Virus record (IMG/VR): IMGVR_UViG_3300026382_000017 | Span: 1-60,818 of that record | Length of the DNA: 60,818 nt | Source: a virus | Lineage: Duplodnaviria > Caudoviricetes | Direction: 5' to 3' (one strand) | Part shown: positions 32,018 to 56,136 of the stretch, in pieces | Layout: each line of letters begins with the position of its first letter | Position numbering within the stretch: the stretch's first letter is position 1 | Made by a program: the position numbers and the translations under genes | Notes under the pieces: generated by a model | Databases searched by the model: none | What the model was told of the DNA's origin: nothing | The model's input: only the letters and a program-made list of their open reading frames with translations

Positions 32018-32021
32018 AATT

Positions 32022-32051: not shown

Positions 32052-32064
32052 AAATTTACTTTAG

Positions 32065-32140: not shown

Positions 32141-32197
32141 AAATATTTTATTGTAAAAAATTAAAATTGTTACAATAAAATATTTTGAGGAGGTATT

Positions 32198-32434
32198 ATG
32201 TTTTATGTCATAAAAAAGACAAAAGGTCAGATGGAATCAAAAGGTAAAGTTTTTGTGTTTAAACAAAAAGTAAAAGTTTCAAAAGAGATGTATAAATATT
32301 TGAAAACTAATTTTAGTAATATGTTTGAATTTGAAGAAGAAAAAACTAAACCAACTACTTTGAAGAACGAAAAAGTTGTAGTAACAAAAGCGCCTACTAA
32401 AAGGACGAGAGGTAAAGCAGTAAAGGATAAATAA
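32198..32434 (+). CDS. Small basic virion-module protein
   Basis: 78-aa ORF, GAGGAGG RBS, typical post-capsid position. Confidence 0.7.
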   Translation: MFYVIKKTKGQMESKGKVFVFKQKVKVSKEMYKYLKTNFSNMFEFEEEKTKPTTLKNEKVVVTKAPTKRTRGKAVKDK

Positions 32435-33493: not shown

Positions 33494-33897
33494 GAGAACA
33501 AATATTTGAAGCACTTGTGAAGGCAATAAAAAATAGTAATAAATTTAAGAAAGTTTATAGTGGTGTGTTACCTCCTATACCAAATGTTAAGTCTTTTCCT
33601 TCCGTTGCAATTGTTATTGATACAGAAAAAAGAGAGCGTGTCAACATAACAAGTTGTAATTTTCAAAGTATGTTACAAATAACAATTATGTTATATGGCA
33701 AAGCAAAGACAAATGCTTATACTGATGTTTTAAGCGAAAAAATAAAAGATTTAGAAGAAATTATACAAAAAGACGAAACTTTAAATGATTTAGTTTTAGA
33801 TGTATTTGTAAAAAGCATTCAGCAAGATGGTGGTATTTTATATCCCTACCAACTTGCTGAAATGACGATAGTTGCTTATTTTAGACAAAATATATAA
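33490..33897 (+). CDS. Tail terminator protein (putative)
   Basis: MREQI..AL, FPSVAI; directly before the tail tube gene. Confidence 0.7.
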   Translation: MREQIFEALVKAIKNSNKFKKVYSGVLPPIPNVKSFPSVAIVIDTEKRERVNITSCNFQSMLQITIMLYGKAKTNAYTDVLSEKIKDLEEIIQKDETLNDLVLDVFVKSIQQDGGILYPYQLAEMTIVAYFRQNI

Positions 33898-33906
33898 GGA
33901 GAATAA

Positions 33907-34932: not shown

Positions 34933-35015
34933 GTTTACCTCCAAGCCCTTTATGGGCTACAATAGATAATTATCGTTATTTATTGTAGCCTATAAATTTA
35001 AAAAAGGAGAGATAG

Positions 35016-35429
35016 ATGGCAATTAAGGTAGTTAAACAAGAAAAGAAAGAATTTACATATATTCCGGTAGAAGAGAGAGGTAGTGAAAATCCTGTTAAAG
35101 TTGTTTTTAAATCTTTAACTAAAGCGGAAAGAGCAGCTTTAGAAGATAAGTTGATTAGGCTTAATCCAGACCAAACAGTTACTGTAGCAAATGCAACTTA
35201 TATTTTAGAGGTATTTAAAACAGCTATTGTAGATATTCAAGGTTTAATTGATGAAGACGGCAATGAAGTAAAATTAAAAAAAGAACATGGAGTTTTGGCA
35301 CAAGAATTTATTGAAATGTTACCAGATGATTTTATTCAAGAAGTAGGTAATGTTATTATAGCAGTTTCAAAAGACCCTCAAAATGCTGATATTTATTTAG
35401 GAAATGTTGGGGAAGAAAATAAGGAATAG
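35016..35429 (+). CDS. Tail assembly chaperone
   Basis: Between tube and tape measure genes; AGGAG RBS. Confidence 0.7.
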   Translation: MAIKVVKQEKKEFTYIPVEERGSENPVKVVFKSLTKAERAALEDKLIRLNPDQTVTVANATYILEVFKTAIVDIQGLIDEDGNEVKLKKEHGVLAQEFIEMLPDDFIQEVGNVIIAVSKDPQNADIYLGNVGEENKE

Positions 35430-35432
35430 TAG

Positions 35433-36080
35433 GTGACTCCTATTTACAAAGAGAAATACCCTGTTGAAGTATATAAAGCTAAAAATGATTTAAGATATGA
35501 TGTAGCTTATTATAGGGTATTAACTAAAAGAGAGCTATTGGATTTAGCTTCTCTTTATTTAAAAGAAAATATAATTACACCTTTATATAAATTAAAAGTG
35601 GTTGAAACTGCTTTATCAGATAAAACTATTATAAATTATTTTTCTGATGATGATATTGATAATTTATTTAAAGAAATAATTGATAAATCAGTAGTTTCAG
35701 AAGATGAATTACAAAAAATTGAAGATTTATTTTGGCTTTTAAATGATAAAAATTTAAAATCTGATACTTGGAATTGTGAAAAATGTAAAGAGTTGGGTTT
35801 GCAGACAAGTAGAGGTTGTAAATTTTTACCAGAGGAAAAAAGGGAAGAAATACAAATTTATGCGGGTGGTAGGTTATGGAATTATTGCCCTATTTATGAA
35901 GTAGAAATGAATAAAAAATTATTAAATAATGCTTTTGAAGCGTATAGGTATTTTGATAAAGGAACATTGCCGGAAAGTGGGAGTGTTTATGACCAAACAT
36001 TAGGGTTTATTGAGTATAGTAATAAAGTGGCTTCTTTAATAAAAGAGTTGGAGGCACGAGAGTTAAAAAAGGATAAATAA
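35433..36080 (+). CDS. Second tail assembly chaperone-like protein (Cys cluster)
   Basis: CEKC...GC...CP and LPESGSVYDQ; directly precedes the tape measure gene. Confidence 0.65.
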   Translation: MTPIYKEKYPVEVYKAKNDLRYDVAYYRVLTKRELLDLASLYLKENIITPLYKLKVVETALSDKTIINYFSDDDIDNLFKEIIDKSVVSEDELQKIEDLFWLLNDKNLKSDTWNCEKCKELGLQTSRGCKFLPEEKREEIQIYAGGRLWNYCPIYEVEMNKKLLNNAFEAYRYFDKGTLPESGSVYDQTLGFIEYSNKVASLIKELEARELKKDK

Positions 36081-39000
36081 TGAGTGGTGCTAACACTGAA
36101 TTTGTAGATATTATAAAATTAAATTTTGAAAGTAATAGTGAACAATTAGAAAGAAGTTTAGCGGCGCTAAAAGGGTATGTGAGTACTCTAATTCCTCAAA
36201 TGGAACAATTAGCTATTTTATTTGCTTCAATAGGAGAAAAAGGAAAAGCTACTACTATAAAAAATTTTGCTGATGGTTTAATTAAAGCAGGGAATGCCGC
36301 TAAATTTAATAAAGATAATATTGATGAAAGTATAAAAAGTTTTCATAAATTAGCACAAGAAGTTGTTTATTCAGAAAGTGTTTTCAAATCTTTAAGAAAA
36401 GAATTAGATACAAGCAAAATAAAAGACTACTCAAAAGACTTATTAAAATTACAAGATAATTTTGAAAGTTTAAAATTTAGTCTTAAAAAATTAGTAGAAA
36501 CACAAGAAAGATGGACTTCAGGGAAACATGTAAGAAAAGCTAACGAGTTTATTTTGAATACATTAGAAAAAGAAGAAAAAGAAATTTTAAAATTGCAAGA
36601 GGCGTACAGAAGTCTTTTAAAAGATAAAGAAGCAGCTATTGCTGAAAATGATGTAAATGCGTTAAATAAGATTAATAGAGAATTAAAAGAACAAAATAAA
36701 TTAATTCAAGATAAAATAGATAATTTGAGAAGTATAAAAAAAGAATACCGAGAAGTAGCAACTAATTTGAAAGAAATAGATAGAATTTCTTGGGTAAAAG
36801 AAGTTGCTAAAAGAGCAATGGCTTATGCTTCTATCTACGCTTCTATTTATGGTATTATACAAGTAATGAAAGATGCTGTGAAATATATTTCAGAAGTTGA
36901 TTTAGCGACAAAAAGATTACAAGCAGTATTAGGCATTACAAGTTTTAAAGCAAAAAATCTTGAAGAATCTTTTAGGGCATTAGCTAAAACCTTTGGGGGA
37001 AGTCTTGAAGAAATAAATAAAGCCGCTTTGGAATTAGGAAGAGCAGGTATTGACCCATCACAAGTCAAAGAAGCTACAAAAGTTGTTGTTGAATTAGCAA
37101 TGATAACAGGTGATAGTTACGCCTCTGCCACAAATGCTTTAGTTACTTTTAAAGAAAATTATGAAGATATGATAAAAGTTATTTATAAAGGCATTGACCC
37201 TATAAAAATTTTAGGAAATAAAATTGCTTATATTGCTAACGCTTCAAGAATGAGTGTTGAAGATATATCTACTTTTGCAAACTATGCTTTAGCTACAGCT
37301 AAATCTATTGGTTTCACAGTCGATATGGTAGGTGCTTTAGCAATTGCTTTTAATAACGCAGGTAATAGTGCTTCCACTGTTGGTACAGAAATAAGAAGAT
37401 TATCTACAATATTAGTTTCAAAAAAAGAAAATATCAAGAATTTCTTTGATTCAATAGGCTTAAATCAAGAAATTTTAGTTGAGAAGTTTAGAAAAGGGGG
37501 TAAAGAAGCCGAAGAAGCATTTAAAATTTTTCTTACAAGATTAAAAGAAGTTAATGATACTGATTTCAATCATTTAATAGGTGGATTACAAGTTTTAGAT
37601 AGACAAGCTCTTACTATGGCAAGAAATACTGCTCCTGAAGTGTTAAATCAATTTTATAAAATGAAAAATGTTGCTACTGATGGTTTAAAAGAAGCAAGTG
37701 TCATAGCTGAAAGTTATGTTAATATTTGGGAAAGATTTAAAAACTTATTAGGTGACCTTGCTTTAAAATTTGATGAAGTTGTAGAAAGTGGAAGTAAAGC
37801 TTTAGAAAGTTTATTATATCTTTTTTCTGATGAACATACACAAAAATTGATGAAGCTTTCAAAAGAATATAAAGAATTAATAGATTTAAAAAAGTATTAT
37901 GAAAGTATCCACGATAACAAAAGAGTAGAAGCATTAAATAAAGAAATAGCTCTTTTAGAAAAGAAAATTCAATTAGAGAATAAATTAAAAGAGCAAGTTG
38001 AAAGTGTTAGTAAAGCATATAAAACTATTCAAGATATTCATAATATGCATTATAGAATAGCTGATTGGGTTGGAAGTATATTAGAGAAAGACCCTATAAA
38101 AGGTTTAAATCTTATTTTTTCAAAAAAAGGAGAAAGACCTTTTTATGGTGAGAAAAAAGAAGATTTAAAAATTATCAGAGAAGAATTATTAAAAATTATT
38201 GCTACTAACAAACAATTAGCTAAAAGTTTAATAGAAAATCCTATGTTAAATGCTAAAGTAAAAAGAGAACTTAAAAGTCTTATTAAAGATTTTGATGAGA
38301 TTAACAAAAAAACTGAAAAAACAAAAGGTAATTTTAGTGCAATAAAATTTGTTAGCGACGAACAAATAAACAATGCAAGTCATTTATTAGCATTAATTAA
38401 TAAACAATCAAAAGCTTTTAAATTAAATGAAACTTATGTTAAACACTTAAACAATGTTTTAGATACTTTTATAAAAAAACAAAAAAATGCGATTATAGAG
38501 TACTTAAGAACAATAAAAGAAGTTAATAATAGTTTAAAAGAAGTATTGTTTAAAGATATTATAAAAGGAAACTCTATTGAAATAGCTTTTAAATTACAAG
38601 AAGCTATAACTACAGGCAAATTAAACAATAAAAAATTAACAAATGAAGAATTAGCAATTATTAAAAAATTATATAGTTTTTATCAAAAAATTATTAAACT
38701 TGAAAAAATGAAAGCTCAACTAAAATCTATTGAAAATAGCGGAGAGCAAAAAATAATACATACAAAAATAAAGCTAATCGAACTTTTAAGAAAGCAGATA
38801 GAATATCTAAAAGAATATAATAAATTATTATCAAATAATCCAAAAACATTACCAAAAGCTATTTTAGCAACTAAGCAAATGTTTAAATCACAAGAACAAA
38901 AAGCATTAAATTACGCTCAAAGTAATGGTTTCAGACAAACTTTTACAATGTTAAAAGACAATAACATAAAAGGTGCTGCAGAGGTATTACTGAAAGATAT

Positions 39001-41878
39001 GCAAAATACTACTAATCAAAAAGAGCTTGAACGTTTACAACAAATGTATGAATATATAAGAAATCTTTTAACTTTAAAACAAGAATTACGTAGCTTAGAA
39101 AATAAGCAATATCAATATCAAGTGAATCAAGAAAATGCGTTACTTCAGTTATATAACAGAAAAATAAATTACTTAAGAACTTATTTACATTTAATGCAAC
39201 AAACGGGACATATTGATAATGCTTTAGCTAAAATAAATGCAACTAAATTAAATTTAGTAAATCAAGCCAACAAGTATAGCAAAAGTCATAGTTTAGGTGT
39301 TTTTGTAAATAGTAACAATATTGGGACAAATATCGCTACTATTCAACAAGCAATGGCTTCAACACAGGATGAAAAGAAATTACAAGCATTACAAAAAATG
39401 CTTCAATATTTACTCGATATTCAAAATCTTGAAAAAATGTCTGCTGATATTGAGGATAAAAGAGCTAAATTTACGAAACAATTAAATTTTGAATTACAAA
39501 AAACAAACAAAGAACTAAATGGTATAAATATTTGGTATCAAAAACAAATAAATAATGTTGATGCGTGGTATCAAAAGCAAAAAGAAGCACTAAAAAACCT
39601 TTATACAGAAGGAAGTGCTGAATACAATAAACATATTGCTAACTTGAATAAAATAAAAGATCAAAAAATTGCTTTGATTGATAAACAATTAGCTCAAAGC
39701 GTAACTTCTGCTTTACAATCTGGTAATTTAACACAAACATATCAAAAAATATTTGAAATGGCTGCTGCCAAATTGGAACAATCTGGAGATAAAATAGGAG
39801 CAAAAGTTACTTCTACTTTAGCAACACATTTAAATAGTTTAATAAATATTATAAATGTTACTTTAAAAACTATTTTTGAAGATGCTTATAATAAAATTAG
39901 GAATAAATATCAGCCTACTATTAATAATTATCAACAAAGTATTTATACAAAGTCATTACAAACGAATGCTTATAATGCTTTTGGGCAAGAAGGTTTTGCA
40001 AAAGGTGCACAATTACAAGCAAGTGTTGATAACGTATTAATGCTAAAAACACAAAATGATATGAATTATGAATTATCTAAAAAAGCTAAACATTACAAAC
40101 AAGTAACACAAACCACTTTAGAAGCATTATCTTTGGCTGCAGGTGCAGCAGCAGCTGTGTATTTTGATGGTGGTGCTATTTTGGACGGTATTAATATGGC
40201 TATTAAAGCTCAAAATTGGGCAGAACAATTAACAGGGTTTAAAAAATTTCAACAAGCATACATTAATGGAGTTGAAAACTTTAAGCAATCTTTAAGAGAT
40301 TTAGCTAATCAACTTATTCAATTAGCGGGGGATGTGTATAAAAATATTAGAACTTACCGTAGTATTTATGACAAGTTTAGTGGAGATAACACTTATAAAT
40401 TGCAAAAAGAGAAAGAAGCTTTAACAAAAGTAAAAGAAATTGTTGGTTCTTTAAATGTTAAAAGTATTAAAAATTACTTAACTAATTTACTTCAAGCAAG
40501 TAATAATTTTATTAGTAATGCTGTCAATAAATCTCAAGCATTAAAAGCATTAGCAAATGGAATTGATAATGTTACAAGTATTGTTAAAAATAGTGCTGGT
40601 AATTATTCAGATGTATTAAAAGCAATGAATAGTCAAATGAAAGAAGCTTTTAATTTAGTAGGAGATTTAGTAAATAATTTCCATCAAGGAATAAAACAAA
40701 TAAATAAGTATATTGATGAATTAAATGCTAAATACTTTGGCAATGTTAAAGATATAACACGGACTTCACAATCTGATGTGATTAGTTTAATTCAAAAATA
40801 CAAAAAAGGTAAAGTTTCTGCAAATGAAGTTTTAAATGTAGCAAAACAATTTGAACAATATGCAAGTTTTAAGCAAATTAGACAGTTAAAGAGTTCTTTA
40901 ACAAGTATTACGCAAATGAGTGACACTGATTATTTAAAAGGTATTTTAGAGAACCTACAAAATTTAAATGCAGTAGGATTACCAAAAGTTAATATAAAAC
41001 AATTAACTGCTCCTCAAGTAAGTGTAAAAGAAGCAATTGATGATACAAAAAATTTCTTAGTAAAGTTATTAAACTCTTTTAATGATGTATTTACAAATCC
41101 CGGAAGTTGGTTAAGGGATATTCTTAATAAAATATGGAATGCAATTTTAAATATTAGTAGTAGTATCTTTAGTATTACACAAACTTTAGTACCATTTATT
41201 ACTAATGCGTTAGGAAATTTTATTAATATTAGTGGTAAATTATTTTATTATGCTATTGCTAAAATAAGTAGTATCATAAGTGGTTTAGGCAATATTATAA
41301 GTTCAGTTGGTAATAATATTGTCAGAGGTTTAAAAGATATTATTAAAACTATCACTCAAGCAGCTGTAGGTATTATAAAAGGTTCATTATCTATACTTAC
41401 TAATGGATTAAAAAATATTGGAGGCACAGTATTTAGTATAACAAAAAATATAGTAAGTAGTGCGGGAGGTATTGTTCATTCAATAGGTAAATCTGCAAAA
41501 CATATTTTTCATTCTGTAAAACATACTTTTGGGTTTGCACAAGGTGGTTACACAGGTTTAGGCATTGGACAAAAAGACCAAACAGGAGAAGTTGTAGCAG
41601 GTGTGGTTCATGCAGGAGAATGGGTTGCTCCAAAATGGATGTTAAATAAATACCCAGATTTGTTTAAATGGTTAGAAGGAGGAAGAAGAACAGGACAACT
41701 AAAAATACCTCAAATTATTACAGCTCCTGTTATTTCTCCTCCTAATATAAATGTAGAAGTCCAATTAAAAGAATTAAAAGAAACAAATTCGATATTAGAT
41801 GACATTAGACGTTTGGAGGAAAAAATGGTTAGATTGCTCCAAAAATTTGACGATGAAGGTATTAAATGCGTTACTTAA
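36080..41878 (+). CDS. Tape measure protein
   Basis: 1932 aa, helical; TP901-like core (ELGRAG, AGNSASTVGTEIRR), amphipathic repeats, FAQGGYTG...GVVHAGEWV. Confidence 0.93.
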   Translation: MSGANTEFVDIIKLNFESNSEQLERSLAALKGYVSTLIPQMEQLAILFASIGEKGKATTIKNFADGLIKAGNAAKFNKDNIDESIKSFHKLAQEVVYSESVFKSLRKELDTSKIKDYSKDLLKLQDNFESLKFSLKKLVETQERWTSGKHVRKANEFILNTLEKEEKEILKLQEAYRSLLKDKEAAIAENDVNALNKINRELKEQNKLIQDKIDNLRSIKKEYREVATNLKEIDRISWVKEVAKRAMAYASIYASIYGIIQVMKDAVKYISEVDLATKRLQAVLGITSFKAKNLEESFRALAKTFGGSLEEINKAALELGRAGIDPSQVKEATKVVVELAMITGDSYASATNALVTFKENYEDMIKVIYKGIDPIKILGNKIAYIANASRMSVEDISTFANYALATAKSIGFTVDMVGALAIAFNNAGNSASTVGTEIRRLSTILVSKKENIKNFFDSIGLNQEILVEKFRKGGKEAEEAFKIFLTRLKEVNDTDFNHLIGGLQVLDRQALTMARNTAPEVLNQFYKMKNVATDGLKEASVIAESYVNIWERFKNLLGDLALKFDEVVESGSKALESLLYLFSDEHTQKLMKLSKEYKELIDLKKYYESIHDNKRVEALNKEIALLEKKIQLENKLKEQVESVSKAYKTIQDIHNMHYRIADWVGSILEKDPIKGLNLIFSKKGERPFYGEKKEDLKIIREELLKIIATNKQLAKSLIENPMLNAKVKRELKSLIKDFDEINKKTEKTKGNFSAIKFVSDEQINNASHLLALINKQSKAFKLNETYVKHLNNVLDTFIKKQKNAIIEYLRTIKEVNNSLKEVLFKDIIKGNSIEIAFKLQEAITTGKLNNKKLTNEELAIIKKLYSFYQKIIKLEKMKAQLKSIENSGEQKIIHTKIKLIELLRKQIEYLKEYNKLLSNNPKTLPKAILATKQMFKSQEQKALNYAQSNGFRQTFTMLKDNNIKGAAEVLLKDMQNTTNQKELERLQQMYEYIRNLLTLKQELRSLENKQYQYQVNQENALLQLYNRKINYLRTYLHLMQQTGHIDNALAKINATKLNLVNQANKYSKSHSLGVFVNSNNIGTNIATIQQAMASTQDEKKLQALQKMLQYLLDIQNLEKMSADIEDKRAKFTKQLNFELQKTNKELNGINIWYQKQINNVDAWYQKQKEALKNLYTEGSAEYNKHIANLNKIKDQKIALIDKQLAQSVTSALQSGNLTQTYQKIFEMAAAKLEQSGDKIGAKVTSTLATHLNSLINIINVTLKTIFEDAYNKIRNKYQPTINNYQQSIYTKSLQTNAYNAFGQEGFAKGAQLQASVDNVLMLKTQNDMNYELSKKAKHYKQVTQTTLEALSLAAGAAAAVYFDGGAILDGINMAIKAQNWAEQLTGFKKFQQAYINGVENFKQSLRDLANQLIQLAGDVYKNIRTYRSIYDKFSGDNTYKLQKEKEALTKVKEIVGSLNVKSIKNYLTNLLQASNNFISNAVNKSQALKALANGIDNVTSIVKNSAGNYSDVLKAMNSQMKEAFNLVGDLVNNFHQGIKQINKYIDELNAKYFGNVKDITRTSQSDVISLIQKYKKGKVSANEVLNVAKQFEQYASFKQIRQLKSSLTSITQMSDTDYLKGILENLQNLNAVGLPKVNIKQLTAPQVSVKEAIDDTKNFLVKLLNSFNDVFTNPGSWLRDILNKIWNAILNISSSIFSITQTLVPFITNALGNFINISGKLFYYAIAKISSIISGLGNIISSVGNNIVRGLKDIIKTITQAAVGIIKGSLSILTNGLKNIGGTVFSITKNIVSSAGGIVHSIGKSAKHIFHSVKHTFGFAQGGYTGLGIGQKDQTGEVVAGVVHAGEWVAPKWMLNKYPDLFKWLEGGRRTGQLKIPQIITAPVISPPNINVEVQLKELKETNSILDDIRRLEEKMVRLLQKFDDEGIKCVT

Positions 41879-42738
41879 AACAAAATAAAATAACTATACT
41901 TAATACGAATGCGCCATTAGAAGATTATCCTGAATGGGATAGTTCTTCTACTTATAACAAAAATGATAAAGTTATTTATAATAATCATATTTGGACTTCT
42001 TTAATTGATAATAATAATAGTGAACCGGGGACTGATTTGAATTGGTTTGATGAAGGAGTAACTAATCCTTATAGAATGTTAGACGAATACATAAATACAT
42101 ACACGAATGCGCCTGACGATAAAGATTTAACATTTACTTTTGAAACTACCAATTTAAACGCTATAGCTTTTTTTGGGATTTATGGACAAGCTATAAAAAT
42201 AGTTATTAAAGATAAAAATGATACAATTGTTTCTGATGAAACAATTGATTTAGTAAGTAATATTTCAAATTGGGAAGATTATTTTTTTGGGGAAATCTGT
42301 TATAGAGAAAAACTGTATTATCCAACTCCAAATTTATTTTATGCAAAAGTAGAAGTTACTATAATCAAAAAAGATGTAGCTAAATTAGGACTTATTAAAG
42401 TGGGTAAAACAACTTATTTAGGAATTACTGCTACTAATGTTAATGCTTCTATTACTGATTACTCAAAGAAAAAAATCAATGATAATGGAATTATTTATTT
42501 AGAAAAAGGAAATTATGCTGATAGAATTTCTTGTGAAACACAAATTATAGGAGCAGCACAATATAATATTGTAAAAAGTAGATTAGAAAATTTAAGAGCT
42601 ACACCTACTGTTTACATTATTGATGAAAGCGACACTTATTTTGAACTTTTAATTTATGGTTATTATGAAAACTTTTCAGGAAAATTAGAAAGTTGTAAAA
42701 CAAGTAAATTTACAATAGATATACAAGGTTTAATATAA
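41866..42738 (+). CDS. Distal tail/baseplate protein (putative)
   Basis: Follows TMP; EWDSSSTYNKNDKVIYN carbohydrate-binding-like repeat, ITDYS, LENLRATP. Confidence 0.7.
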   Translation: MRYLKQNKITILNTNAPLEDYPEWDSSSTYNKNDKVIYNNHIWTSLIDNNNSEPGTDLNWFDEGVTNPYRMLDEYINTYTNAPDDKDLTFTFETTNLNAIAFFGIYGQAIKIVIKDKNDTIVSDETIDLVSNISNWEDYFFGEICYREKLYYPTPNLFYAKVEVTIIKKDVAKLGLIKVGKTTYLGITATNVNASITDYSKKKINDNGIIYLEKGNYADRISCETQIIGAAQYNIVKSRLENLRATPTVYIIDESDTYFELLIYGYYENFSGKLESCKTSKFTIDIQGLI

Positions 42739-42747
42739 AGGATAAAA

Positions 42748-43503
42748 ATGGCTAAAATTACTCAAGCAATTTCAAGTTTACCTGTTGTTGAGGGAAGATA
42801 TGGAAGTGATTTTATACAACAAGCAGATGCTTTTTTAAATACACTTCCACATTGGTCTCCCCAATTAAATCAATTTGCTCATCAAGCAAACAATTTAAGA
42901 GATGAAGTAAATGACTTTAGAAATACTACATATGATTATATGACAACAACAAAAAATTATATGAACAGTACTTACGTTTATAAAGAAGATGCTATAAATG
43001 CTGCAAATTTTATAAAAAATTATGTTATTCCTCAAGAGGTAACTTATAGTAAAGATACGTTAGATAGCAATTATAATAGTTTACTAACAGCAATAACTGC
43101 TACACAAGTACAAATATCAACAATTACTAATTTTTTGCCGGAGTTAGCAGATTATAAATTAAGAAATGTTGATAGTAAATATATAAAAGATAAAGTAATT
43201 GAAAACTTAGTTTTAGAAAGAGAATATAATAATGGTATAGTTGAATTATTTGGAGGAATTAAACTCCAATTTGGTATTGTACATAGTACAACAGATGACA
43301 ATGGGTATATGGTATTAACATTTCCTTATTCTTTTTCTTTGCAGTGTTTTCAAGTTATTTGTATCGACGATGGTAAGGAAGCTGTCAATTATGGTGTTAT
43401 AGAAATAACAAAAAATACATTTAAAGTAATATGCAGAAATAGTGATGGTAATATAAGAGCTAATAGTTACACAGGATGTAGATTTATGGCAATAGGTGTT
43501 TAA
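42748..43503 (+). CDS. Tail fiber-related protein (gp53-like C-terminal domain)
   Basis: NGIVELFGGIKLQFG, TFPYSFS, FMAIG C-terminus. Confidence 0.75.
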   Translation: MAKITQAISSLPVVEGRYGSDFIQQADAFLNTLPHWSPQLNQFAHQANNLRDEVNDFRNTTYDYMTTTKNYMNSTYVYKEDAINAANFIKNYVIPQEVTYSKDTLDSNYNSLLTAITATQVQISTITNFLPELADYKLRNVDSKYIKDKVIENLVLEREYNNGIVELFGGIKLQFGIVHSTTDDNGYMVLTFPYSFSLQCFQVICIDDGKEAVNYGVIEITKNTFKVICRNSDGNIRANSYTGCRFMAIGV

Positions 43504-43533
43504 AAACAAATAAAAAAATAAAAGGAGAGATAA

Positions 43534-44496
43534 ATGGCTAATCCATTTGATATAGCAAATTTTAATTTAGTGAATTTTGCACAGGTTTTACCTGATGTTT
43601 TAGACAGCGACCCTAAAATAGTTGAATATATTTATAAAGATGCAGATGGAAATATAAAAACTAAAAATGTAGAAAATAGAGGATTATTTAAAAAACATAT
43701 TTGGGATGATGTAGGTGGAGCTTTAGGGCAATTTAACAAAACATTTTATGTTGATCAAGAAAATGGGGATGATAATAATGATGGTAGTAGTAGTCATCCT
43801 TTTAAAACGATAAAAAAGGCGGTTGTTTCTACACCAATTGGAGGGAATTGCACTATTTATATAAAAGGAAATTATGTGTTAGATACTAATATTAATATTG
43901 ATTTTAGAAATGTGAAAATCAATTTACTCGATGGTGCTAAGTTATATGGAAAATGGTATATTGTAGATGACAAAGCAAGACTTTACGATATAGATTTTAG
44001 CAATGGTTTTCTATATATATATATAAGACAAATGGAAGAAAATGGAGAACCCTCACAAATAATTATTCCTGAAAACGATACAGGAAAAGATATAGAAGTA
44101 GAATATCATCAATTATTTAGATATTCAGGAGGAAATGCATTTTCAACACTTAAAATTTTCTTTATGAACAAAGTAGATGGAGCAAATATTATAGAAGTAA
44201 ATGATGGGAAATTATTTAAAGTTCATGCTTGGTTAAGACAATATGGACATCCACAAGTTAAAATTCAAGGACATTATGGAGGCTCAAAAATAATGGTAAA
44301 TACCGATACTTTAGCTAATCATTTTATTGATTTTGCAGGAAGCCCAGCCACTTTTGCTTGGCAAGTTGAGAGTGCTGATTTAATTGACCAAAACGGAAAT
44401 AATATAGATATTAAAGATCACGTTGCTGGAATTATCAGAGATGCAGATTCAGGTAATCCAATCAACTTACTTTCAAACATTAATTTTAGTGATTAA
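43534..44496 (+). CDS. Tail fiber/receptor-binding protein (putative)
   Basis: FYVD..NGDDNNDG....PFKTIKKAV beta-helix leader motif. Confidence 0.7.
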   Translation: MANPFDIANFNLVNFAQVLPDVLDSDPKIVEYIYKDADGNIKTKNVENRGLFKKHIWDDVGGALGQFNKTFYVDQENGDDNNDGSSSHPFKTIKKAVVSTPIGGNCTIYIKGNYVLDTNINIDFRNVKINLLDGAKLYGKWYIVDDKARLYDIDFSNGFLYIYIRQMEENGEPSQIIIPENDTGKDIEVEYHQLFRYSGGNAFSTLKIFFMNKVDGANIIEVNDGKLFKVHAWLRQYGHPQVKIQGHYGGSKIMVNTDTLANHFIDFAGSPATFAWQVESADLIDQNGNNIDIKDHVAGIIRDADSGNPINLLSNINFSD

Positions 44497-44507
44497 GGAG
44501 AAACAAA

Positions 44508-51885: not shown

Positions 51886-52236
51886 ATGTCTTTTGAAAAA
51901 GTAAAAATAGTAGTAGAAAAAGATAGCAAAGATTATTATTTTGAGTGTGGTTTGGGTTGTATGTTTGCAACCTACTCTTTATTTAAACCCTCTGTAAATG
52001 ACGAAGTAAAATTGTTTGATAGAGTTTTTCACCCATATAAATATTATATTTATAAAAAATTGTTTGGATTTATTAAAATATATAAAATTTGTTGGGTATC
52101 TCCTCAAATAGATTCTTATGAAGAACTTGCGGAATTTTATTATAATAATATGTTAAAACAATTACCAAACGGAGTTAAATTAGATTGTTTAAAAAACTGT
52201 ATTACACAAAATATTAAGGATATGGAAAATGACTAA
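51886..52236 (+). CDS. Hypothetical protein
   Basis: 116-aa ORF, AAGGAG RBS. Confidence 0.7.
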   Translation: MSFEKVKIVVEKDSKDYYFECGLGCMFATYSLFKPSVNDEVKLFDRVFHPYKYYIYKKLFGFIKIYKICWVSPQIDSYEELAEFYYNNMLKQLPNGVKLDCLKNCITQNIKDMEND

Positions 52237-52918
52237 ATGGGATTTACCTATGATGAAGACTGCTTTTGTTTGGGCAGAACAAAGTAAATGTACCAGAGCA
52301 AAAGTTGGAGCAGTTATAGCAAAAGAAAATAGAATTATAGCAATAGGATATAATGGTACTCCTTCAGGATATAAAAGAAAAATCAAAGAAATTTGTAATT
52401 GTTGTAATGGTAGTGGAAGTGTATTAAATTATTCTTGTTCCTGTTGTAATGGTGAAGGTTTTATTTATGTTCCTCATAAATATGATTGTGAAGAGGAACA
52501 GTTAATAACAGTTAGTAAATGTTGTAATGCAGAAATTAAAGAAAATAAAAAAGAAGGGAAAGTATTTTGTTTAAAATGCGGAAAGCAAATTGGATTTATT
52601 GATTTTATGAATGGTTCAGACAATTATAGACTTGTTGGTGATTTTGAAGTGAAAAAAGAATTGAAGACTAATCATTCAATTGTTATTCATGCTGAAATAA
52701 ACGCTATATCATTTGCGGCTCGTTATGGAATACCTCTTAAAGGAACAACTATGTATATTACAATGAGTCCTTGTTCTGAATGTGCGAAAGCAATTATTCA
52801 AGTAGGTATTAAAGAGGTTGTGTATTATACTGAATATAGAGATACTAAAGGTATTTCATTTTTAAAAGAAAATGGTGTGAAAGTTAGACAATATCAAGGA
52901 GTAATAAATGTCTTTTAA
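52229..52918 (+). CDS. dCMP deaminase with Cys-rich insertion
   Basis: SKCTRAKVGAVI, GYNGTPSG, HAEINAI, PCSEC. Confidence 0.92.
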   Translation: MTKWDLPMMKTAFVWAEQSKCTRAKVGAVIAKENRIIAIGYNGTPSGYKRKIKEICNCCNGSGSVLNYSCSCCNGEGFIYVPHKYDCEEEQLITVSKCCNAEIKENKKEGKVFCLKCGKQIGFIDFMNGSDNYRLVGDFEVKKELKTNHSIVIHAEINAISFAARYGIPLKGTTMYITMSPCSECAKAIIQVGIKEVVYYTEYRDTKGISFLKENGVKVRQYQGVINVF

Positions 52919-53350: not shown

Positions 53351-54288
53351 TGAAATTGGAAAAAAGAAGTGAGTTATTTTCTGCTGGGTATTATAATACA
53401 GGAAATACAGGGTTTTTGGAATTATGGGATTTTAGTGATGCAAATTTATCTATGGAAAATAGAGTAAAAGCTGTTTCACAAGTAGCGTCAGTTTGTTTTG
53501 GAAATAATGGTTTAAAACCTAATTTTAAACTTTACGATAAACTTTCAAGGGAAAGTATAGGATTGCCTTCAAGCAGTTTTGAATTTATACCTGTTATTTT
53601 AAATGAACATAAGATAAATCTGCTTGATAGTCATTTTAGAGTTGTTATGCAAAATTTTTATGGTTTGTTAAAAACAGGAAGTGAATGGAATTATAAAGAT
53701 TTTGTTCCTAATGTAGTAAGATATGGTTATGTTTTTGTGGATAAAGGAAAACAATATATTTTAACTAATTTAAGAGCATTAATGTATGATTTAGAGTTTA
53801 TTCAAAAAAATATTACATCAAAACATTTACCAAGTGTTGATGACAAGTATTGGTTAAATACAAAAGAAGAAGTTGAAACTTATATTAAAAAATTATTTGT
53901 TGTTTTTAGAGTGAAAGCTACAATAAGGGATTTTAGACAATTATTCCGCCATAGAAGAGCTTTTCAACAAGAATTGTCTCGTAGATATACATCAGGTGAA
54001 AAAGTACCTTTTGAATTTAGATATAATTTAGAAATGGCAAAATATTTTGCAGATAGACTTATAAAAAGAGATGAAGAAGCTGTTGATATGTATTTTGAAG
54101 CTGTTGAAAATGGTTTTAAAAAAGAAGATGCAAGAGACTTGTTGCCTGTTTCTTTATATTCTATTGCGTGGATAGGATTTTATCCTGATGGATATGCTAA
54201 TTTTTTAAATTTAAGAACGAAAAGTTCTGCACAGAAAGCAATTAGGGAAATTGCAGAAAAAATGAGAGATTTTAAACAAATTTATTAA
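53350..54288 (+). CDS. thyX: FAD-dependent thymidylate synthase
   Basis: RQLFRHR..FQQELSRRY, KEDARDLLP, FLNLR..SSAQKAIR. Confidence 0.9.
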   Translation: MKLEKRSELFSAGYYNTGNTGFLELWDFSDANLSMENRVKAVSQVASVCFGNNGLKPNFKLYDKLSRESIGLPSSSFEFIPVILNEHKINLLDSHFRVVMQNFYGLLKTGSEWNYKDFVPNVVRYGYVFVDKGKQYILTNLRALMYDLEFIQKNITSKHLPSVDDKYWLNTKEEVETYIKKLFVVFRVKATIRDFRQLFRHRRAFQQELSRRYTSGEKVPFEFRYNLEMAKYFADRLIKRDEEAVDMYFEAVENGFKKEDARDLLPVSLYSIAWIGFYPDGYANFLNLRTKSSAQKAIREIAEKMRDFKQIY

Positions 54289-54295
54289 AAATCTC

Positions 54296-54324
54296 TTGAC
54301 ATTCTTTTTGTTTTGTGTTATAAT
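54296..54324 (+). promoter_or_regulatory. Consensus promoter for the coiled-coil gene + ncRNA unit
   Basis: TTGACA-17-TATAAT. Confidence 0.8.
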
Positions 54325-54350
54325 TTTGAAAAAGTTAAAAAGGAGTATTT

Positions 54351-54962
54351 ATGAAACTAACAATAACAGAAGCAATAGCAAAAATAAAAGTTTTAGAAAA
54401 AAGAATTAAAAAAGAAAAAACAAGATTAGAAGTTGGAAAGATAGTAAAAGCAATTGATGTAGATAGTCAGGAAAATAGAAATTATTTAAAAGAGTTAGAG
54501 GCTCAATTTCAATCGATTAATGATTTGACTAATAATTATATGAAAATAAAAGCTAAAATTGCTGAAAGTAATGCTTCTACAAAGATTAAAATAGGTGATT
54601 TGGAAATGACTATTGTAGAGGCGTTAGAGAGAAAGAATAAATTAGATGATGAAATTTCTTTTTGGGAAAGATTGTTATCTGATTACAATGAATTAGCAAA
54701 TAGAGTTGAGTATAACAATGAACAAGTGATGGAAACAATAAATAAAATGCTTGAAACAAAGTTTTCAGGGGAAAGCAAAACATCAGCAAAAGATGCAATT
54801 GAGTTAAAAGAACAACTTTATAATGCTGATAAATATACTTTGTTGACATCTGATAAAGTTGTAAAAGGTATAAAAAATAAAGTTGAAGAGTTGACTGAAT
54901 TTGCAGAGCAGATTGACACTAAATTATCTATTGTAAATGCAACTACATATATAGAAATTTAG
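54351..54962 (+). CDS. Conserved coiled-coil protein with two internal T(I/V)xEA...(S/V)NA.T.I repeats; putative RNA-binding oligomer
   Basis: MKLTITEAI..IK.LEKRI ... IAESNASTKIKI ... MTIVEALE ... LSIVNATTYIEI; own promoter and RBS. Confidence 0.85.
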   Translation: MKLTITEAIAKIKVLEKRIKKEKTRLEVGKIVKAIDVDSQENRNYLKELEAQFQSINDLTNNYMKIKAKIAESNASTKIKIGDLEMTIVEALERKNKLDDEISFWERLLSDYNELANRVEYNNEQVMETINKMLETKFSGESKTSAKDAIELKEQLYNADKYTLLTSDKVVKGIKNKVEELTEFAEQIDTKLSIVNATTYIEI

Positions 54963-54967
54963 TTGAT

Positions 54968-55243
54968 AGACTGCCATACCGAAAACCAAAAACACAGGGC
55001 TTTGACAATTGAGCCTGTCAATTGTTAATTAAATTATATAATACTGAAAACAGAAGAGGCTGATAACCTTAATACAGTTATTTTATGTTAAAAGAGTAAC
55101 GCTTAAAGTTTAAAGAATAAATAATAACGATTAACTACTAACTTCTAATTATTAAAGGGTAACGAGTAAAAAGTATAAAATCCCGGAGTTAGTTTAGTCG
55201 TTTCTGTGTTACGCAGGTTTGTACCGGGCTGGTGTGGCAGTCT
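54968..55243 (+). ncRNA. Putative structured ncRNA (13-bp closing stem, pseudoknot, 11 x UAA-N4 heptamer tract)
   Basis: AGACTGCCATACC (54968-80) pairs with GGTGTGGCAGTCT (55231-43); AAACC/GGTTT, AACACAG/CTGTGTT, crossing CCCGG/CCGGG; GC-enriched stems in an AT-rich genome; no ORF. Confidence 0.8.
55097..55173 (+). repeat. Eleven in-phase 7-nt units, each starting TAA
   Basis: TAACGCT TAAAGTT TAAAGAA TAAATAA TAACGAT TAACTAC TAACTTC TAATTAT TAAAGGG TAACGAG TAAAAAG. Confidence 0.95.
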
Positions 55244-55256
55244 TTTATAAAAAGAC

Positions 55257-55285
55257 TTGACATTAGTTTTGTTTTATTGTATAAT
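55257..55285 (+). promoter_or_regulatory. Consensus sigma70-type promoter
   Basis: TTGACA-17-TATAAT. Confidence 0.8.
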
Positions 55286-55353
55286 TATAATGAAACTAAT
55301 GATAAAAAATTAGTAAAACAACTTTAAAAAAATATTAAAAACAAGGAGTAAAA

Positions 55354-56136
55354 ATGGATTTATCAAACTTAACAAGAGAACAGCTACAGGCTATGGGCTT
55401 GAGTGAAGAACAAATTGCGGCAATTTTGAATACAGTTGAGGAAAATAAAGGTGGACAGGGTGTACCATTTCCTTTATTAAAAATAAACTATGATATGGAT
55501 TTTGGTAAAGTAGGAGCGTATGGTTATAATCCACAAAAAGATGAAAATGGTAATTTATCTGGTTATGAATTTGTATCAGATAAAGTGACAATTAGACCTA
55601 TTAAATCAGTTTATCAGTATAGTAAATTTGATGTAGAGCAAAATAAACCGACAGTTACATCAAATATTTTTCCATTAAGAGAAGCAAAAAAAGCATATGA
55701 TTTGAAATCAGGAACACCTATTTCAGTGTTAAAAGCGTCTGATAATGATATAACATTCCAAAGAATTCTTTTAGGTGTTATTGACATTGATGGAGAAGAA
55801 AAACCATTTATTATGTATGCAAAAGGAAGTTTTTTATATGAGTTGAATAATATTTTAAATCAGTATAAAAATGATGGACATATGACTCATAAATTTACGC
55901 TTGGTACTGAAAAGAGAAAAAAAGGAACAGTTGTATGGTTTGTTCCTACATTAGAAGATGTAAATGAATTGGCACAAGACGAATTTATTAAAAACATAAA
56001 AACTGATGCAGAATTGATTAGACAGTTTGATGAATGGATTGCAAGTGTAAATGCTGGAGGTAATGATACGCCATCTACTGTTTCTACAAAAGCTACATCT
56101 GATGTAGAAGTAGATGAGAGTGAAATAAACTTTTAA
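55354..56136 (+). CDS. Putative single-stranded DNA-binding protein
   Basis: P.LKIN N-terminal motif, beta-rich core, acidic tail ending DESEINF; upstream of SbcCD. Confidence 0.6.
   Translation: MDLSNLTREQLQAMGLSEEQIAAILNTVEENKGGQGVPFPLLKINYDMDFGKVGAYGYNPQKDENGNLSGYEFVSDKVTIRPIKSVYQYSKFDVEQNKPTVTSNIFPLREAKKAYDLKSGTPISVLKASDNDITFQRILLGVIDIDGEEKPFIMYAKGSFLYELNNILNQYKNDGHMTHKFTLGTEKRKKGTVVWFVPTLEDVNELAQDEFIKNIKTDAELIRQFDEWIASVNAGGNDTPSTVSTKATSDVEVDESEINF

What the first reader, a model, noticed from the sequence alone, without database searches (positions are those of the whole stretch)
54296..55243. Self-contained protein + ncRNA unit: coiled-coil gene followed by a pseudoknotted RNA carrying 11 phased UAA heptamers
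Seen: a perfect TTGACA-17-TATAAT promoter drives a 203-aa coiled-coil ORF with two internal repeats. Five nt after its stop begins a 276-nt non-coding element whose ends pair (13 bp with one G-U; 54968-80 with 55231-43). It has nested helices AAACC/GGTTT and AACACAG/CTGTGTT, a crossing helix CCCGG (55182-86)/CCGGG (55224-28) that makes a pseudoknot, and an 11-bp hairpin at 55002-55028. Inside is an apparently unpaired tract of eleven exact-phase TAA-N4 units. The next gene has its own promoter, so this is not simply its leader. Inference: a ribonucleoprotein in which each UAA is a docking site for one subunit of a ring or filament formed by the upstream protein, so the RNA acts as a scaffold or ruler for oligomer size, or as a neutralising antitoxin/sponge. 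The analogy is TRAP, an 11-mer ring binding 11 spaced (G/U)AG triplets. I cannot assign it to any RNA class I recognise.
Basis: partly seen in the sequence, partly recalled or inferred. Interest (0 to 1): 0.92.

Follow-up and report, generated by a model that had tools for sequence, protein, structure and literature searches.

The report
Conserved phage protein plus structured RNA
A gene for a small helical protein of unknown function is followed, in this phage and in dozens of unrelated large phages including T5, by one and the same intricately folded non-coding RNA that carries a tract of short 7-base repeats, which looks like an undescribed RNA-protein particle sitting among phage tRNA genes.

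Summary

The element recurs. It lies downstream of homologs of the 203-aa protein in 27 of 27 loci I fetched, from T5-like, V5-like, Bacillus, Lactococcus, Clostridium, Pseudomonas and jumbo phages.

The link also holds from the RNA side. A scan of viral contigs with an RNA motif gave 42 true elements with enough upstream sequence, and 41 had the protein gene just upstream.

Four long-range helices (P1, Pa, Pb, and the crossing Pk) keep pairing while their sequences change. G·U pairs and a control on the reverse strand place the RNA on the + strand.

The repeat tract is a family feature with a period of 7, sometimes 8, nt and a consensus unit YAAAGNU. The window's UAA-N4 ×11 is its most regular version.

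No Rfam family matches, and no solved structure of known function or paper turned up.

The module sits in tRNA operons.

Most likely it is a stable ribonucleoprotein whose protein dimers bind the periodic tract. Binding itself is untested.

The parts
54296..54324 (+). Promoter of the module (TTGACA-17-TATAAT, TG-extended -10)
   Evidence: 12 of 12 consensus matches. It is one of 8 perfect promoters in the window against 0.04 expected.
54351..54962 (+). Gene for a 203-aa helical protein (phrog_1491; distant DUF6847 / DIP1984-like), function unknown
   Evidence: ORF. phrog_1491 E 1e-39. 1644 representative clusters at E <= 1e-3. AlphaFold2 pLDDT 96.8. Homodimer predicted with ipSAE 0.64 against best control 0.00.
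54968..55243 (+). Whole structured non-coding RNA, 276 nt
   Evidence: Ends pair. Fold z = -4.75 on the + strand only. Homologous elements in 27 of 27 loci. Model R1 gives a single hit in the window, 55169-55244, E 1e-10.
54968..54981 (+). P1, 5' strand of the closing helix; the inner pair is G·U, followed by A-rich J1
   Evidence: Pairs with 55230-55243. Across 23 loci 90% of cells are canonical against 56% with swapped partners. The 92%-identical relative L012 and metagenome variants keep the pairing through changes.
54983..54987 (+). Pa, 5' strand (AAACC)
   Evidence: Pairs with 55216-55220. Across 54 elements the native helix score is 12.35 against 8.12 swapped, p 6e-22. Three Vibrio phages show compensatory changes.
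54991..54999 (+). Pb, 5' strand
   Evidence: Pairs with 55202-55210. Across 54 elements native 15.3 against swapped 12.3, p 1e-15, with 7-8 bp helices of unrelated sequence at the same position.
55002..55028 (+). 11-bp hairpin, at the place where many relatives have an H-type pseudoknot
   Evidence: RNAfold. Pseudoknot S1/S2 with an A-rich third loop is found in relatives. Variants 55008 A>G and 55026 T>C keep or improve pairing.
55044..55070 (+). Two small variable hairpins
   Evidence: RNAfold. Deleted in L012 and replaced in a related contig (table 5), so they are dispensable.
55097..55173 (+). Repeat tract: 11 exact-phase UAA-N4 heptamers, then a degenerate 12th unit and AAAAU up to 55181
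   Evidence: Pattern search gives 7 matches against 0.06 expected. Lag-7 identity is 0.69. In L012, 7 of 7 substitutions fall in the spacers. In related contigs, 11 of 11 listed variant sites fall in the spacers (that table is truncated).
55182..55186 (+). Pk, 5' strand of the crossing helix (CCCGG)
   Evidence: Pairs with 55224-55228. In alignment A4, 125 of 125 cells pair, 4 of 5 pairs change on both sides, and the covariation score is 0.732 against 0.192 in shuffles, 0 of 500 reaching it. RNAalifold predicts the same helix.
55202..55210 (+). Pb, 3' strand, inside the Pk loop
   Evidence: Variant 55203 T>C turns a G·U pair into G-C.
55216..55220 (+). Pa, 3' strand (GGTTT), inside the Pk loop
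55224..55228 (+). Pk, 3' strand (CCGGG), followed by an invariant C and then P1
55230..55243 (+). P1, 3' strand, followed by a U-run
55257..55285 (+). Promoter of the next gene; marks the 3' boundary of the module
   Evidence: 12 of 12 consensus matches.

Best explanation
The region is a two-part phage module transcribed from one promoter. It holds a gene for a small dimeric helical protein (phrog_1491, DUF6847/DIP1984-like) and, directly after it, a 260-460-nt structured non-coding RNA of an undescribed class.

Shown: the RNA core is built from a long closing helix (P1), two further long-range helices (Pa, Pb) and a 5-bp helix (Pk) that crosses them. The core encloses a 5' hairpin or H-type pseudoknot, variable hairpins, and an A-rich tract of roughly 8-13 short repeats with a 7-nt period. 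The family unit is YAAAGNU. In this window it is UAA-N4, eleven times.

Inferred: the RNA is cut out of the transcript, often by the tRNA-processing machinery because the module sits in tRNA operons. It then accumulates as a stable ribonucleoprotein. Copies of the upstream protein bind the periodic tract side by side, one binding site per repeat. The folded core acts as a nucleation point and end cap.

The biological role is unknown. Its position among tRNA genes of large virulent phages suggests a role in translation, tRNA handling or host takeover.
For: Shown.

- Protein-first co-occurrence. The element is downstream of the homolog in 27 of 27 loci: 25 by a fixed script, and L026 and L028 by eye, both of which align in A4.
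- Specificity of the script. It finds 23 of 25 native regions, 0 of 25 reverse complements, and 0 of 100 resampled regions at dG <= -17.
- RNA-first co-occurrence. 80 pattern matches in viral contigs were analysed.
  - 41 have the protein gene upstream. All 41 are among the 58 matches with a complementary Pk, and none is among the 22 without.
  - 38 matches passing both Pk and P1 have enough upstream sequence, and 35 of them have the protein.
  - Of the other 3, two are coding false positives and one (L097) is a true RNA behind a different gene.
- Covariation.
  - Pk: 125 of 125 cells paired, 4 of 5 pairs changed on both sides.
  - P1: 90% canonical against 56% swapped.
  - Pa and Pb: native against swapped partners, p 6e-22 and 1e-15 over 54 non-redundant elements.
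- Strand. G·U pairs, fold z = -4.75 against -1.54, and 0 of 25 detections on the reverse strand.
- Periodicity.
  - Mean lag-7 identity is 0.465 in 25 loci and 0.447 in 31 new ones, against about 0.23-0.27 at lags 3-5.
  - Spacing between successive AAAG motifs is 7 in 52 of 186 cases, 8 in 17 and 14 in 25. Shuffles give 3.4% at 7.
- Selection on the repeat core in close relatives. 7 of 7 substitutions and 11 of 11 listed variant sites fall in the N4 spacers and none in UAA.
- Transcription unit.
  - Perfect promoters lie before the gene and after the RNA.
  - A terminator-like hairpin lies within 90 nt after the RNA in 14 of 54 elements, against 1 of 54 control windows.
  - A tRNA starts within 10 nt after the RNA in 5 elements.
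- Protein. The model is confident (pLDDT 96.8). Conserved basic residues are K13, R18, K67, R94 and K95.
- Dimer. Symmetric homodimer with ipSAE 0.64, best of 3 controls 0.00. The three runs share 100% of their contacts and the partner's pLDDT is at least 87. In the tool's calibration the mark was reached by 20 of 30 proteins solved as pairs of one chain and 1 of 23 solved as single chains.

Inferred: that the protein binds the RNA, and that it binds the tract.
Against: - No binding, expression or processing data exist.
- The protein family is mildly acidic overall (median pI 5.8, window 5.4), which is unusual for a protein that coats RNA.
- The conserved SNA motif around N74 lies in the predicted dimer interface, so its conservation may serve dimerisation rather than RNA contact.
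- Thermodynamic folding gives the tract a mean unpaired probability of only 0.45 across 54 elements, against 0.37 for the rest, and 0.58 in the window.
- The period is not strict in all phages. In L006, L010 and L027 the lag-7 identity (0.25-0.27) is no higher than at the other lags, and their strongest period is 8-8.5 nt.
- One true RNA (L097) has no family protein within 1.6 kb upstream.
Confidence: 0.45

Rival explanations
1. The RNA works on its own or with a host factor. It could be a sponge or decoy for a host RNA-binding protein or ribonuclease, or an RNA-only assembly like other phage RNAs found beside tRNA genes. The upstream protein is then linked only by co-transcription or by a separate step such as folding or protection.
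For: - The core is far more elaborate than a protein landing pad needs.
- L097 carries the RNA without the protein upstream.
- The protein is acidic overall.
- Many units contain self-complementary AGCU or AAGCUU, which could pair between molecules.
- ROOL and GOLLD are also phage-borne and form RNA-only complexes (abstract of PMC12286853 as shown). That they lie beside tRNA genes is recalled.
Against: - Gene order and orientation are kept in 41 of 42 RNA-first loci and 27 of 27 protein-first loci across very distant phages. Co-transcription alone rarely keeps that.
- The hosts range from Proteobacteria to Firmicutes, so a single host partner would have to be universal.
Confidence: 0.25
2. The element is a cis-acting 3' untranslated region of the protein's own mRNA. 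It would be a stabiliser against 3' exonucleases and/or an operator through which the protein autoregulates. In this reading it resembles the pseudoknot followed by an unstructured repeat tract in the leader of T4 gene 32 (recalled).
For: - The RNA starts 5 nt after the stop codon here and within about 60 nt in most loci.
- Gene and RNA share a promoter.
- In relatives a pseudoknot is followed by an A-rich repeat tract.
Against: - The tract overlaps no ribosome-binding site.
- In several loci the gap is large: the RNA lies 134-458 nt from the gene.
- In three loci a tRNA follows within 3-7 nt, so the RNA would be cut free.
- Four covarying long-range helices are more than an mRNA end-protector needs.
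Confidence: 0.15
3. A type III-like toxin-antitoxin or inhibitor pair, in which the repeat RNA neutralises a harmful protein.
For: A repeat RNA lies next to a small protein gene.
Against: - The units are 7 nt long, not roughly 36-nt pseudoknot units.
- The RNA lies downstream of the gene, not upstream.
- The protein is a helical bundle with no nuclease family hit in Pfam, PHROGs, NCBIfam or PADLOC.
- The module lies in virulent phages' tRNA operons.
Confidence: 0.05
4. A DNA-level element, such as iterons of a replication origin or a packaging or recombination site, bound by the upstream protein.
For: Short AT-rich direct repeats lie next to a gene for a dimeric protein.
Against: - Helices keep G·U pairs that would be mismatches on the other strand.
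- The detection pipeline finds 0 of 25 on the reverse complement.
- The fold z-score is significant only on the + strand.
- The tract is enclosed by covarying RNA helices.
- A 7-bp period does not fit the DNA helical repeat (general knowledge).
Confidence: 0.03

Closest known systems
TRAP with the trp leader, and HutP with hut mRNA
   Same: A single-stranded RNA tract carries a short motif repeated in register, read by identical subunits of an oligomer. HutP sites are recalled to have four-nucleotide spacers, which also gives a 7-nt period.
   Different: Those motifs are NAG triplets in 5' leaders that control termination. Here the unit is YAAAGNU, the tract lies inside a pseudoknotted RNA at the 3' end of the unit, and the protein is a helical bundle with no match to either family.
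Translational operator of T4 gene 32 with gp32
   Same: A pseudoknot is followed by an unstructured A/U-rich repeat tract on which a protein binds cooperatively, with a site size of about 7 nt.
   Different: That operator is a 5' leader overlapping the start of the regulated gene, and gp32 is a DNA-binding protein of a different fold. Here the tract follows the gene and is enclosed by four long-range helices.
tmRNA with SmpB
   Same: The 5' and 3' ends pair, a pseudoknot precedes a single-stranded tract, there is a dedicated small protein partner, and the biology is tRNA-linked.
   Different: There is no tRNA-like domain and no tag reading frame. ARAGORN and Rfam find no tmRNA. The window's tract has stop codons in all three frames.
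ROOL and GOLLD RNAs
   Same: They are large structured RNAs of unknown function carried by phages, near tRNA genes as I recall. I saw the listing and the start of the abstract for PMC5737381 and PMC12286853.
   Different: No Rfam match to either here or in 9 other loci. This RNA is smaller (259-458 nt). It has a conserved protein gene partner, whereas those are reported as RNA-only complexes.
Type III toxin-antitoxin RNAs such as ToxI (recalled)
   Same: A tandem-repeat RNA is genetically paired with one protein.
   Different: Unit length, gene order and protein fold all differ.
Stable RNAs of unknown function annotated in phage T5 (RNAI, RNAIII, RNA1, RNA2, RNA2H, RNA3, RNAIV, RNAX)
   Same: They lie in the same genome region and on the same strand as the T5 copy of this element.
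   Different: None of the 8 annotated RNAs covers the element. It lies in the unannotated gap between T5.085 and T5.084.

Membership tests
Any Rfam 15 family | Match to a curated covariance model | tested here: not met
   No hit at E <= 10 in window 54000-56000. Only two tRNAs reach gathering score in the whole window. In 9 other loci at E <= 0.1 the hits are tRNAs, one drum RNA elsewhere in L004 and weak antisense-tRNA matches, and none falls on the element.
tmRNA | tRNA-like domain with acceptor end and T-arm, plus a tag reading frame | tested here: not met
   ARAGORN reports only tRNA-Asn and tRNA-Ser in the window. No Rfam tmRNA hit. UAA every 7 nt closes all three frames.
TRAP-binding or HutP-binding RNA | Phased NAG triplets in a 5' leader, with a TRAP or HutP protein | tested here: not met
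   The repeat unit is YAAAGNU, or UAA-N4 in the window. The partner protein has no TRAP or HutP Pfam hit and a helical fold.
Type III toxin-antitoxin (ToxIN-like) | Tandem repeats of about 34-36 nt upstream of an endoribonuclease toxin gene | tested here: not met
   The units are 7 nt and lie downstream of the gene. There is no nuclease or defence family hit.
Retron msr-msd RNA | Adjacent reverse transcriptase gene; the terminal inverted repeats pair | tested here: not met
   The ends do pair, but the neighbouring genes show no reverse transcriptase. They are ThyX-like, the helical protein, a protein of unknown function and an SbcD-like nuclease.
DUF6847 / DIP1984 protein family (for the protein) | Score above the curated cut-off of PF20935 or NF038048 | tested here: not met
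   PF20935 gives 19.1 bits against a cut-off of 27. NF038048 gives 21.5 bits against a cut-off of 70. The relationship is distant. The best structural match is 3kdq, of unknown function, at E 3e-3. An 85%-identical relative does carry a precomputed PF20935 hit.
phrog_1491 ('tail fiber protein') | Profile match; a tail-fibre role | tested here: inconclusive
   The profile match is strong, E 1e-39 over the full length. Nothing supports the label: the gene lies among early, nucleotide-metabolism and tRNA genes, and many records call it hypothetical.
New RNA class proposed here | P1 with an inner G·U pair then A; Pa; Pb; AAAU followed by a 5-bp Pk, then C and P1; a 7-nt repeat tract; the phrog_1491 gene upstream | tested here: met
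   The window meets every feature. The features recur in 27 of 27 and 41 of 42 loci.

The most novel reading that the evidence does not exclude
This is a widespread, undescribed phage ribonucleoprotein in which the repeat tract works as a codon-like array for tRNA anticodon loops rather than merely as a protein landing pad.

The family unit, read across unit borders, is complementary to six of the seven anticodon-loop bases of tRNA-Lys(UUU) if one G·U is allowed. I checked this against the phage tRNA-Lys in L027. In this window five of the eleven units read UAAC. That is complementary to the core of the anticodon loop of the tRNA-Asn(GUU) that this same phage encodes.

The particle would hold or shield these tRNAs, which are recalled to be favourite targets of bacterial anticodon nucleases. 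The protein would clamp the short pairings. This would be a new way for phages to protect translation.
Probability: 0.1. Interest if true: 0.95.

Novelty: categorically new. Interest (0 to 1): 0.86.

Why it matters
Few bacterial or phage non-coding RNAs of this size and intricacy remain undescribed. Fewer still come with a dedicated, equally uncharacterised protein partner that is present in model phages such as T5.

The protein family has 1644 representative clusters and hits in 707 phage records. These are routinely mislabelled 'tail fiber protein'.

The module lies inside the tRNA operons of large virulent phages that infect both Gram-negative and Gram-positive hosts. It therefore probably serves a general step of phage takeover of translation or RNA metabolism.

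It is directly testable in T5 and E. coli K-12. It gives structural biology a compact new pseudoknotted fold with a periodic single-stranded tract.

It would also correct a widespread annotation error and fill an unannotated gap in many phage genomes.

Tried and rejected
**Known RNA class.** Rejected: there are no Rfam or ARAGORN matches on the element. I considered a resemblance of the Pk region to the P4 region of RNase P RNA from memory and dropped it. The two strands lie about 40 nt apart here, not at opposite ends of the RNA, and Rfam's RNase P models do not match.

**Leader of the next gene.** Rejected. The next gene has its own promoter. Downstream genes differ between phages. Terminators or tRNAs intervene.

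**Protein function.**
- PDB by sequence gave nothing below E 0.004.
- Foldseek against PDB gave only 3kdq, of unknown function.
- The viral structure library gave only uncharacterised phage proteins.
- The ESM Atlas gave only 'hypothetical protein' clusters.
- PADLOC gave nothing meaningful.

**Expression.** No RNA holder was listed for the window, so no statement on expression is possible. The contigs laid are DNA only.

**Close relatives in viral contigs by protein.** None for the window protein, and only 3 for P0004.

**Full-length covariance model.** Not attempted. The element (259-458 nt) exceeds what the model builder calibrates, and the MAFFT full-length alignment A3 (514 columns) does not align the P1, Pa and Pb strands column by column. 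I therefore counted those helices with anchored scripts and used the tool only for Pk.

A rigid anchor for Pa worked in the first set (79% canonical against 43% swapped). It failed in the second set (59% against 52%) because the register shifts by 1-2 nt.

**Circularity.** Pk complementarity and a stable P1 were detection criteria. Their percentage paired is therefore partly by construction. The informative figures are the swapped, slid, reverse-strand and resampled controls. Pa and Pb were not used for detection.

**H-type pseudoknot.** It is clear in about 15 of 25 loci and unclear in the Otagovirus group, L025 and the window itself. In the window its first stem would compete with Pb.

**Literature.** These searches found nothing on this RNA or protein:
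- bacteriophage + noncoding RNA + heptamer repeats
- ROOL, GOLLD, tRNA, phage
- phage-encoded, structured RNA, tRNA cluster, ribonucleoprotein
- bacteriophage T5, RNA-seq, non-coding RNA
- DUF6847, PF20935, phrog_1491, 3KDQ
- phage, ncRNA, pseudoknot, Tequintavirus
- T5.085 and related tags
- phage T5 transcriptome

From preprint 10.64898/2026.09.22.753630 I read passages only. It concerns other systems. For all other papers I saw only the search listing and the start of the abstract.

Full report
**What is in the window**

The window is a fragment of a low-GC phage genome, estimated 32% complete. It carries nucleotide-metabolism genes, an SbcD-like nuclease and two tRNAs.

At 54296-54324 there is a perfect sigma-70-type promoter, one of eight in the window against 0.04 expected. 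It is followed by a 203-aa ORF at 54351-54962.

Five nucleotides after the stop codon a 276-nt non-coding stretch begins, 54968-55243. Its ends form a 14-bp helix. The next perfect promoter is at 55257-55285.

The eleven exact-phase UAA-N4 units at 55097-55173 are far beyond chance: 7 overlapping 5-unit matches against 0.06 expected.

The + strand folds much better than shuffles (z = -4.75). The - strand does not (z = -1.54). Rfam 15 and ARAGORN assign nothing to the element.

**The protein**

The protein matches phrog_1491 at E 1e-39. Pfam DUF6847 and NCBIfam DIP1984 match only weakly, below their cut-offs.

An exhaustive HMMER search found 1644 representative clusters at E <= 1e-3, nearly all 200-215 aa long. 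tblastn found the protein in 707 phage records. These include T5-like, V5-like, Otagovirus, Bacillus, Lactococcus, Clostridium and jumbo phages.

AlphaFold2 with an 84-row alignment gives a confident model, pLDDT 96.8. It is a helical bundle capped by a small beta-sheet built from two copies of an SNAxTxI motif.

The only solved relative is 3kdq, of unknown function. The viral structure library returns only uncharacterised phage proteins.

A symmetric homodimer is predicted with ipSAE 0.64, best of 3 controls 0.00. The three runs share 100% of their contacts and the partner's pLDDT is at least 87. In the tool's calibration the mark was reached by 20 of 30 proteins solved as pairs of one chain and by 1 of 23 solved as single chains. 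This supports pairing but does not show it.

The family is mildly acidic, median pI 5.8, with a few conserved basic residues. The 'tail fiber' label has no support from context.

**The RNA recurs wherever the protein does**

I fetched the gene with its flanks from 26 other places:
- 22 named phage records;
- one metagenome contig, L012, whose protein is 92% identical;
- three viral contigs.

L011 was dropped because only 43 nt follow the gene.

In all 27 loci, counting the window, the gene is followed by the same kind of element. A fixed script found 25. L026 and L028 were found by eye and align with the rest.

The same script finds 23 of 25 native regions, 0 of 25 reverse complements, and 0 of 100 first-order resampled regions at dG <= -17. 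L014 and L015, near-duplicates of L013, were left out of that control.

None of 9 other loci has an Rfam hit on the element. In T5 the element lies in an unannotated gap between T5.085 and T5.084. None of the eight annotated T5 'stable RNAs of unknown function' covers it.

**The reverse test**

I scanned the viral-contig collection with a pattern taken from the RNA's 3' domain only. It returned 82 stretches, of which 80 were listed as loci and analysed.

- 58 of the 80 have a complementary Pk helix and 22 do not. About 28% complementarity is expected for chance matches, given the pattern.
- A profile of the protein family finds the gene upstream in 41 of the 80. All 41 are among the 58, and none is among the 22.
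- 40 matches also pass the P1 test. Of these, 35 have the protein, 2 have too little upstream sequence, and 3 lack it.
- Of those 3, L094 and L106 are GC-rich coding sequence, so false positives. L097 is a true element that follows a lysozyme-like ORF.
- Six further loci have the protein but a P1 below my threshold.

So 41 of 42 true elements with enough sequence have the protein gene just upstream, usually 4-56 nt away.

A covariance model of the 3' domain finds one strong hit in the window and one in each of five complete phage genomes, all of which were training members.

**Architecture and covariation**

The order along the RNA is as follows.
1. P1 5' strand, 13-21 bp. Its innermost pair is always G·U, followed by an A.
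2. Pa 5' strand.
3. Pb 5' strand.
4. A hairpin or H-type pseudoknot with an A-rich third loop.
5. Variable hairpins.
6. The repeat tract.
7. AAAU.
8. Pk 5' strand, 5 bp.
9. Pb 3' strand.
10. Pa 3' strand.
11. About 3 nt.
12. Pk 3' strand.
13. An invariant C.
14. P1 3' strand.

Pk, on the MAFFT alignment A4 of 25 sequences:
- 125 of 125 cells pair, and 4 of 5 pairs change on both sides.
- The covariation score is 0.732 against 0.192 in shuffles, with 0 of 500 reaching it.
- Slid partners pair in 24-56% of cells.
- RNAalifold predicts exactly this helix.

P1, over 12 positions in 23 loci: 90% canonical against 56% with partners swapped between loci and 32-52% slid.

Pa, which was not used for detection: 79% against 43% swapped in the first set.

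Over 54 non-redundant elements (23 old plus 31 new after removing near-duplicates), a register-free test gives:
- Pa: native score 12.35 against 8.12 swapped, p 6e-22;
- Pb: native score 15.3 against 12.3 swapped, p 1e-15.

The Pb helices are 7-8 bp of unrelated sequence at the same position.

Close relatives tell the same story.
- L012 changes P1 by compensatory and wobble-preserving substitutions.
- L012 lacks the two small hairpins.
- Variants in related metagenome contigs keep or improve P1, Pb and the hairpin.

The H-type pseudoknot beats all shuffles in 10 of the 25 loci scored (L014 and L015 duplicate L013) and is unclear in the window, where its first stem would compete with Pb.

**The repeat tract**

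- Base identity at lag 7 averages 0.465 in the first 25 loci and 0.447 in the 31 new ones. At lag 14 it is 0.40, against about 0.23-0.27 at lags 3-5.
- Lag 7 is the best of lags 2-13 in 21 of 31 new elements.
- The same test inside the upstream gene shows nothing.
- The most enriched word is AAAG: 62 observed against 15.5 expected, present in 16 of 17 lineages.
- Successive AAAG motifs are 7 nt apart in 52 of 186 cases, 8 in 17 and 14 in 25. Shuffles give 3.4% at 7.
- Anchored on AAAG, the unit is Y-AAAG-N-U, with U at the last place in 83%.

The window and its close relative L012 have the longest exact-phase chains, 12, of all 54 elements. Their motif is reduced to UAA.

In that lineage selection acts on the triplet. 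All 7 substitutions against L012 fall in the N4 spacers. So do all 11 variant sites listed for related contigs. By chance that would happen with probability about 0.002, but that table omits 11 less-supported sites.

Thermodynamic folding leaves the tract only moderately open, with unpaired probability 0.45 against 0.37 for the rest. It is more open than the rest in 50 of 54 elements.

**Context**

- 33 of 54 elements have at least one tRNA gene within -2.5/+1.5 kb. All 108 tRNAs are on the same strand as the module.
- In 12 elements a tRNA ends just before the protein gene. In 5 a tRNA begins within 10 nt after P1 (examples).
- A terminator-like hairpin follows within 90 nt in 14 of 54, against 1 of 54 control windows.

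The module is thus a unit of promoter or tRNA, then gene, then RNA, then terminator or tRNA. The RNA's ends are probably made by the enzymes that mature tRNAs; that step is inferred.

**Interpretation**

Shown: a new, widespread, strand-specific, pseudoknotted RNA class, tightly and directionally linked to one protein family, with a conserved periodic tract.

Inferred: the two form a ribonucleoprotein in which protein dimers read the repeats. I give this 0.45.

It fits the strict synteny, the selection on the repeat core, the dimer prediction and the precedents of phased-motif recognition. Those precedents are TRAP, and HutP and the T4 gene 32 operator, the last two recalled from memory.

Against it stand the acidic protein, the lack of any binding or expression data, the partly paired prediction for the tract, and one RNA without the gene.

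The rivals are:
- an RNA that works alone or with a host factor (0.25);
- a cis-acting 3' region of the mRNA (0.15);
- a toxin-antitoxin-like pair (0.05);
- a DNA-level element (0.03).

A bolder reading, at about 0.1, is that the units are codon-like docking sites for tRNA anticodon loops. The family unit is complementary to six of the seven loop bases of tRNA-Lys(UUU) if a G·U is allowed. The window's UAAC units match the loop of the phage's own tRNA-Asn(GUU). The preference for G over A after AAA argues against simple pairing.

**Novelty**

No Rfam family, solved structure of known function, or paper found in eight full-text searches describes the RNA or the protein. I could not see supplementary files, and subscription journals are not in the library, so an earlier mention cannot be excluded.

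On the evidence at hand this is a new RNA class and a new protein-RNA pairing, present in the model phage T5 and therefore directly testable.

Noticed in passing
window 55354-56136: The gene after the module encodes a 260-aa protein with no Pfam hit above cut-off and no PHROG, NCBIfam or PADLOC family hit. It ends in an acidic tail with a terminal aromatic residue. That recalls phage single-stranded-DNA-binding proteins (recalled resemblance only).
   Followed up: no
window 23466-55285 (eight sites): There are eight perfect TTGACA-17-TATAAT promoters, most starting TTGACATT, against 0.04 expected. In related metagenome contigs the 55244-55286 promoter stretch is shared by many otherwise unrelated contigs at high depth. 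It looks like a reused promoter cassette.
   Followed up: partly
L004 5398-5505 (Clostridium phage D-1873): A drum RNA (RF02958, 47.7 bits, above its gathering score) lies about 430 nt downstream of this phage's copy of the element, in a 1.2-kb gap without annotated genes.
   Followed up: no
L097 (viral contig), element at 7757-8190 of the reversed locus: This is the one true copy of the RNA found without the family protein within 1.6 kb upstream. A lysozyme-like ORF ends 6 nt before it.
   Followed up: partly
L025 1840-2297 (Aeromonas phage 4_4572): About 458 nt with no annotated gene separate the protein gene from the RNA. Several viral contigs have gaps of 134-246 nt.
   Followed up: no
L111 (phage T5, record 28000-44500): The T5 record annotates eight 'stable RNAs with unknown functions', including a 719-nt RNAX, in the tRNA region next to the module. 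They remain unexplained, and Rfam matched only a tRNA inside RNAX.
   Followed up: no
window 52229-52918: The dCMP deaminase carries a long insertion rich in CxxC pairs between the two halves of the deaminase domain.
   Followed up: no
window 10603-10794 and 7978-8165: Two long tandem duplications: a 101-nt unit x1.9 at 92% identity and a 99-nt unit x1.9 at 74% identity.
   Followed up: no
window 55240-55256: A small AU-rich inverted repeat overlaps the last bases of P1 and the U-run, between the RNA and the next promoter. It may be a weak terminator. The terminator scan did not flag it.
   Followed up: no
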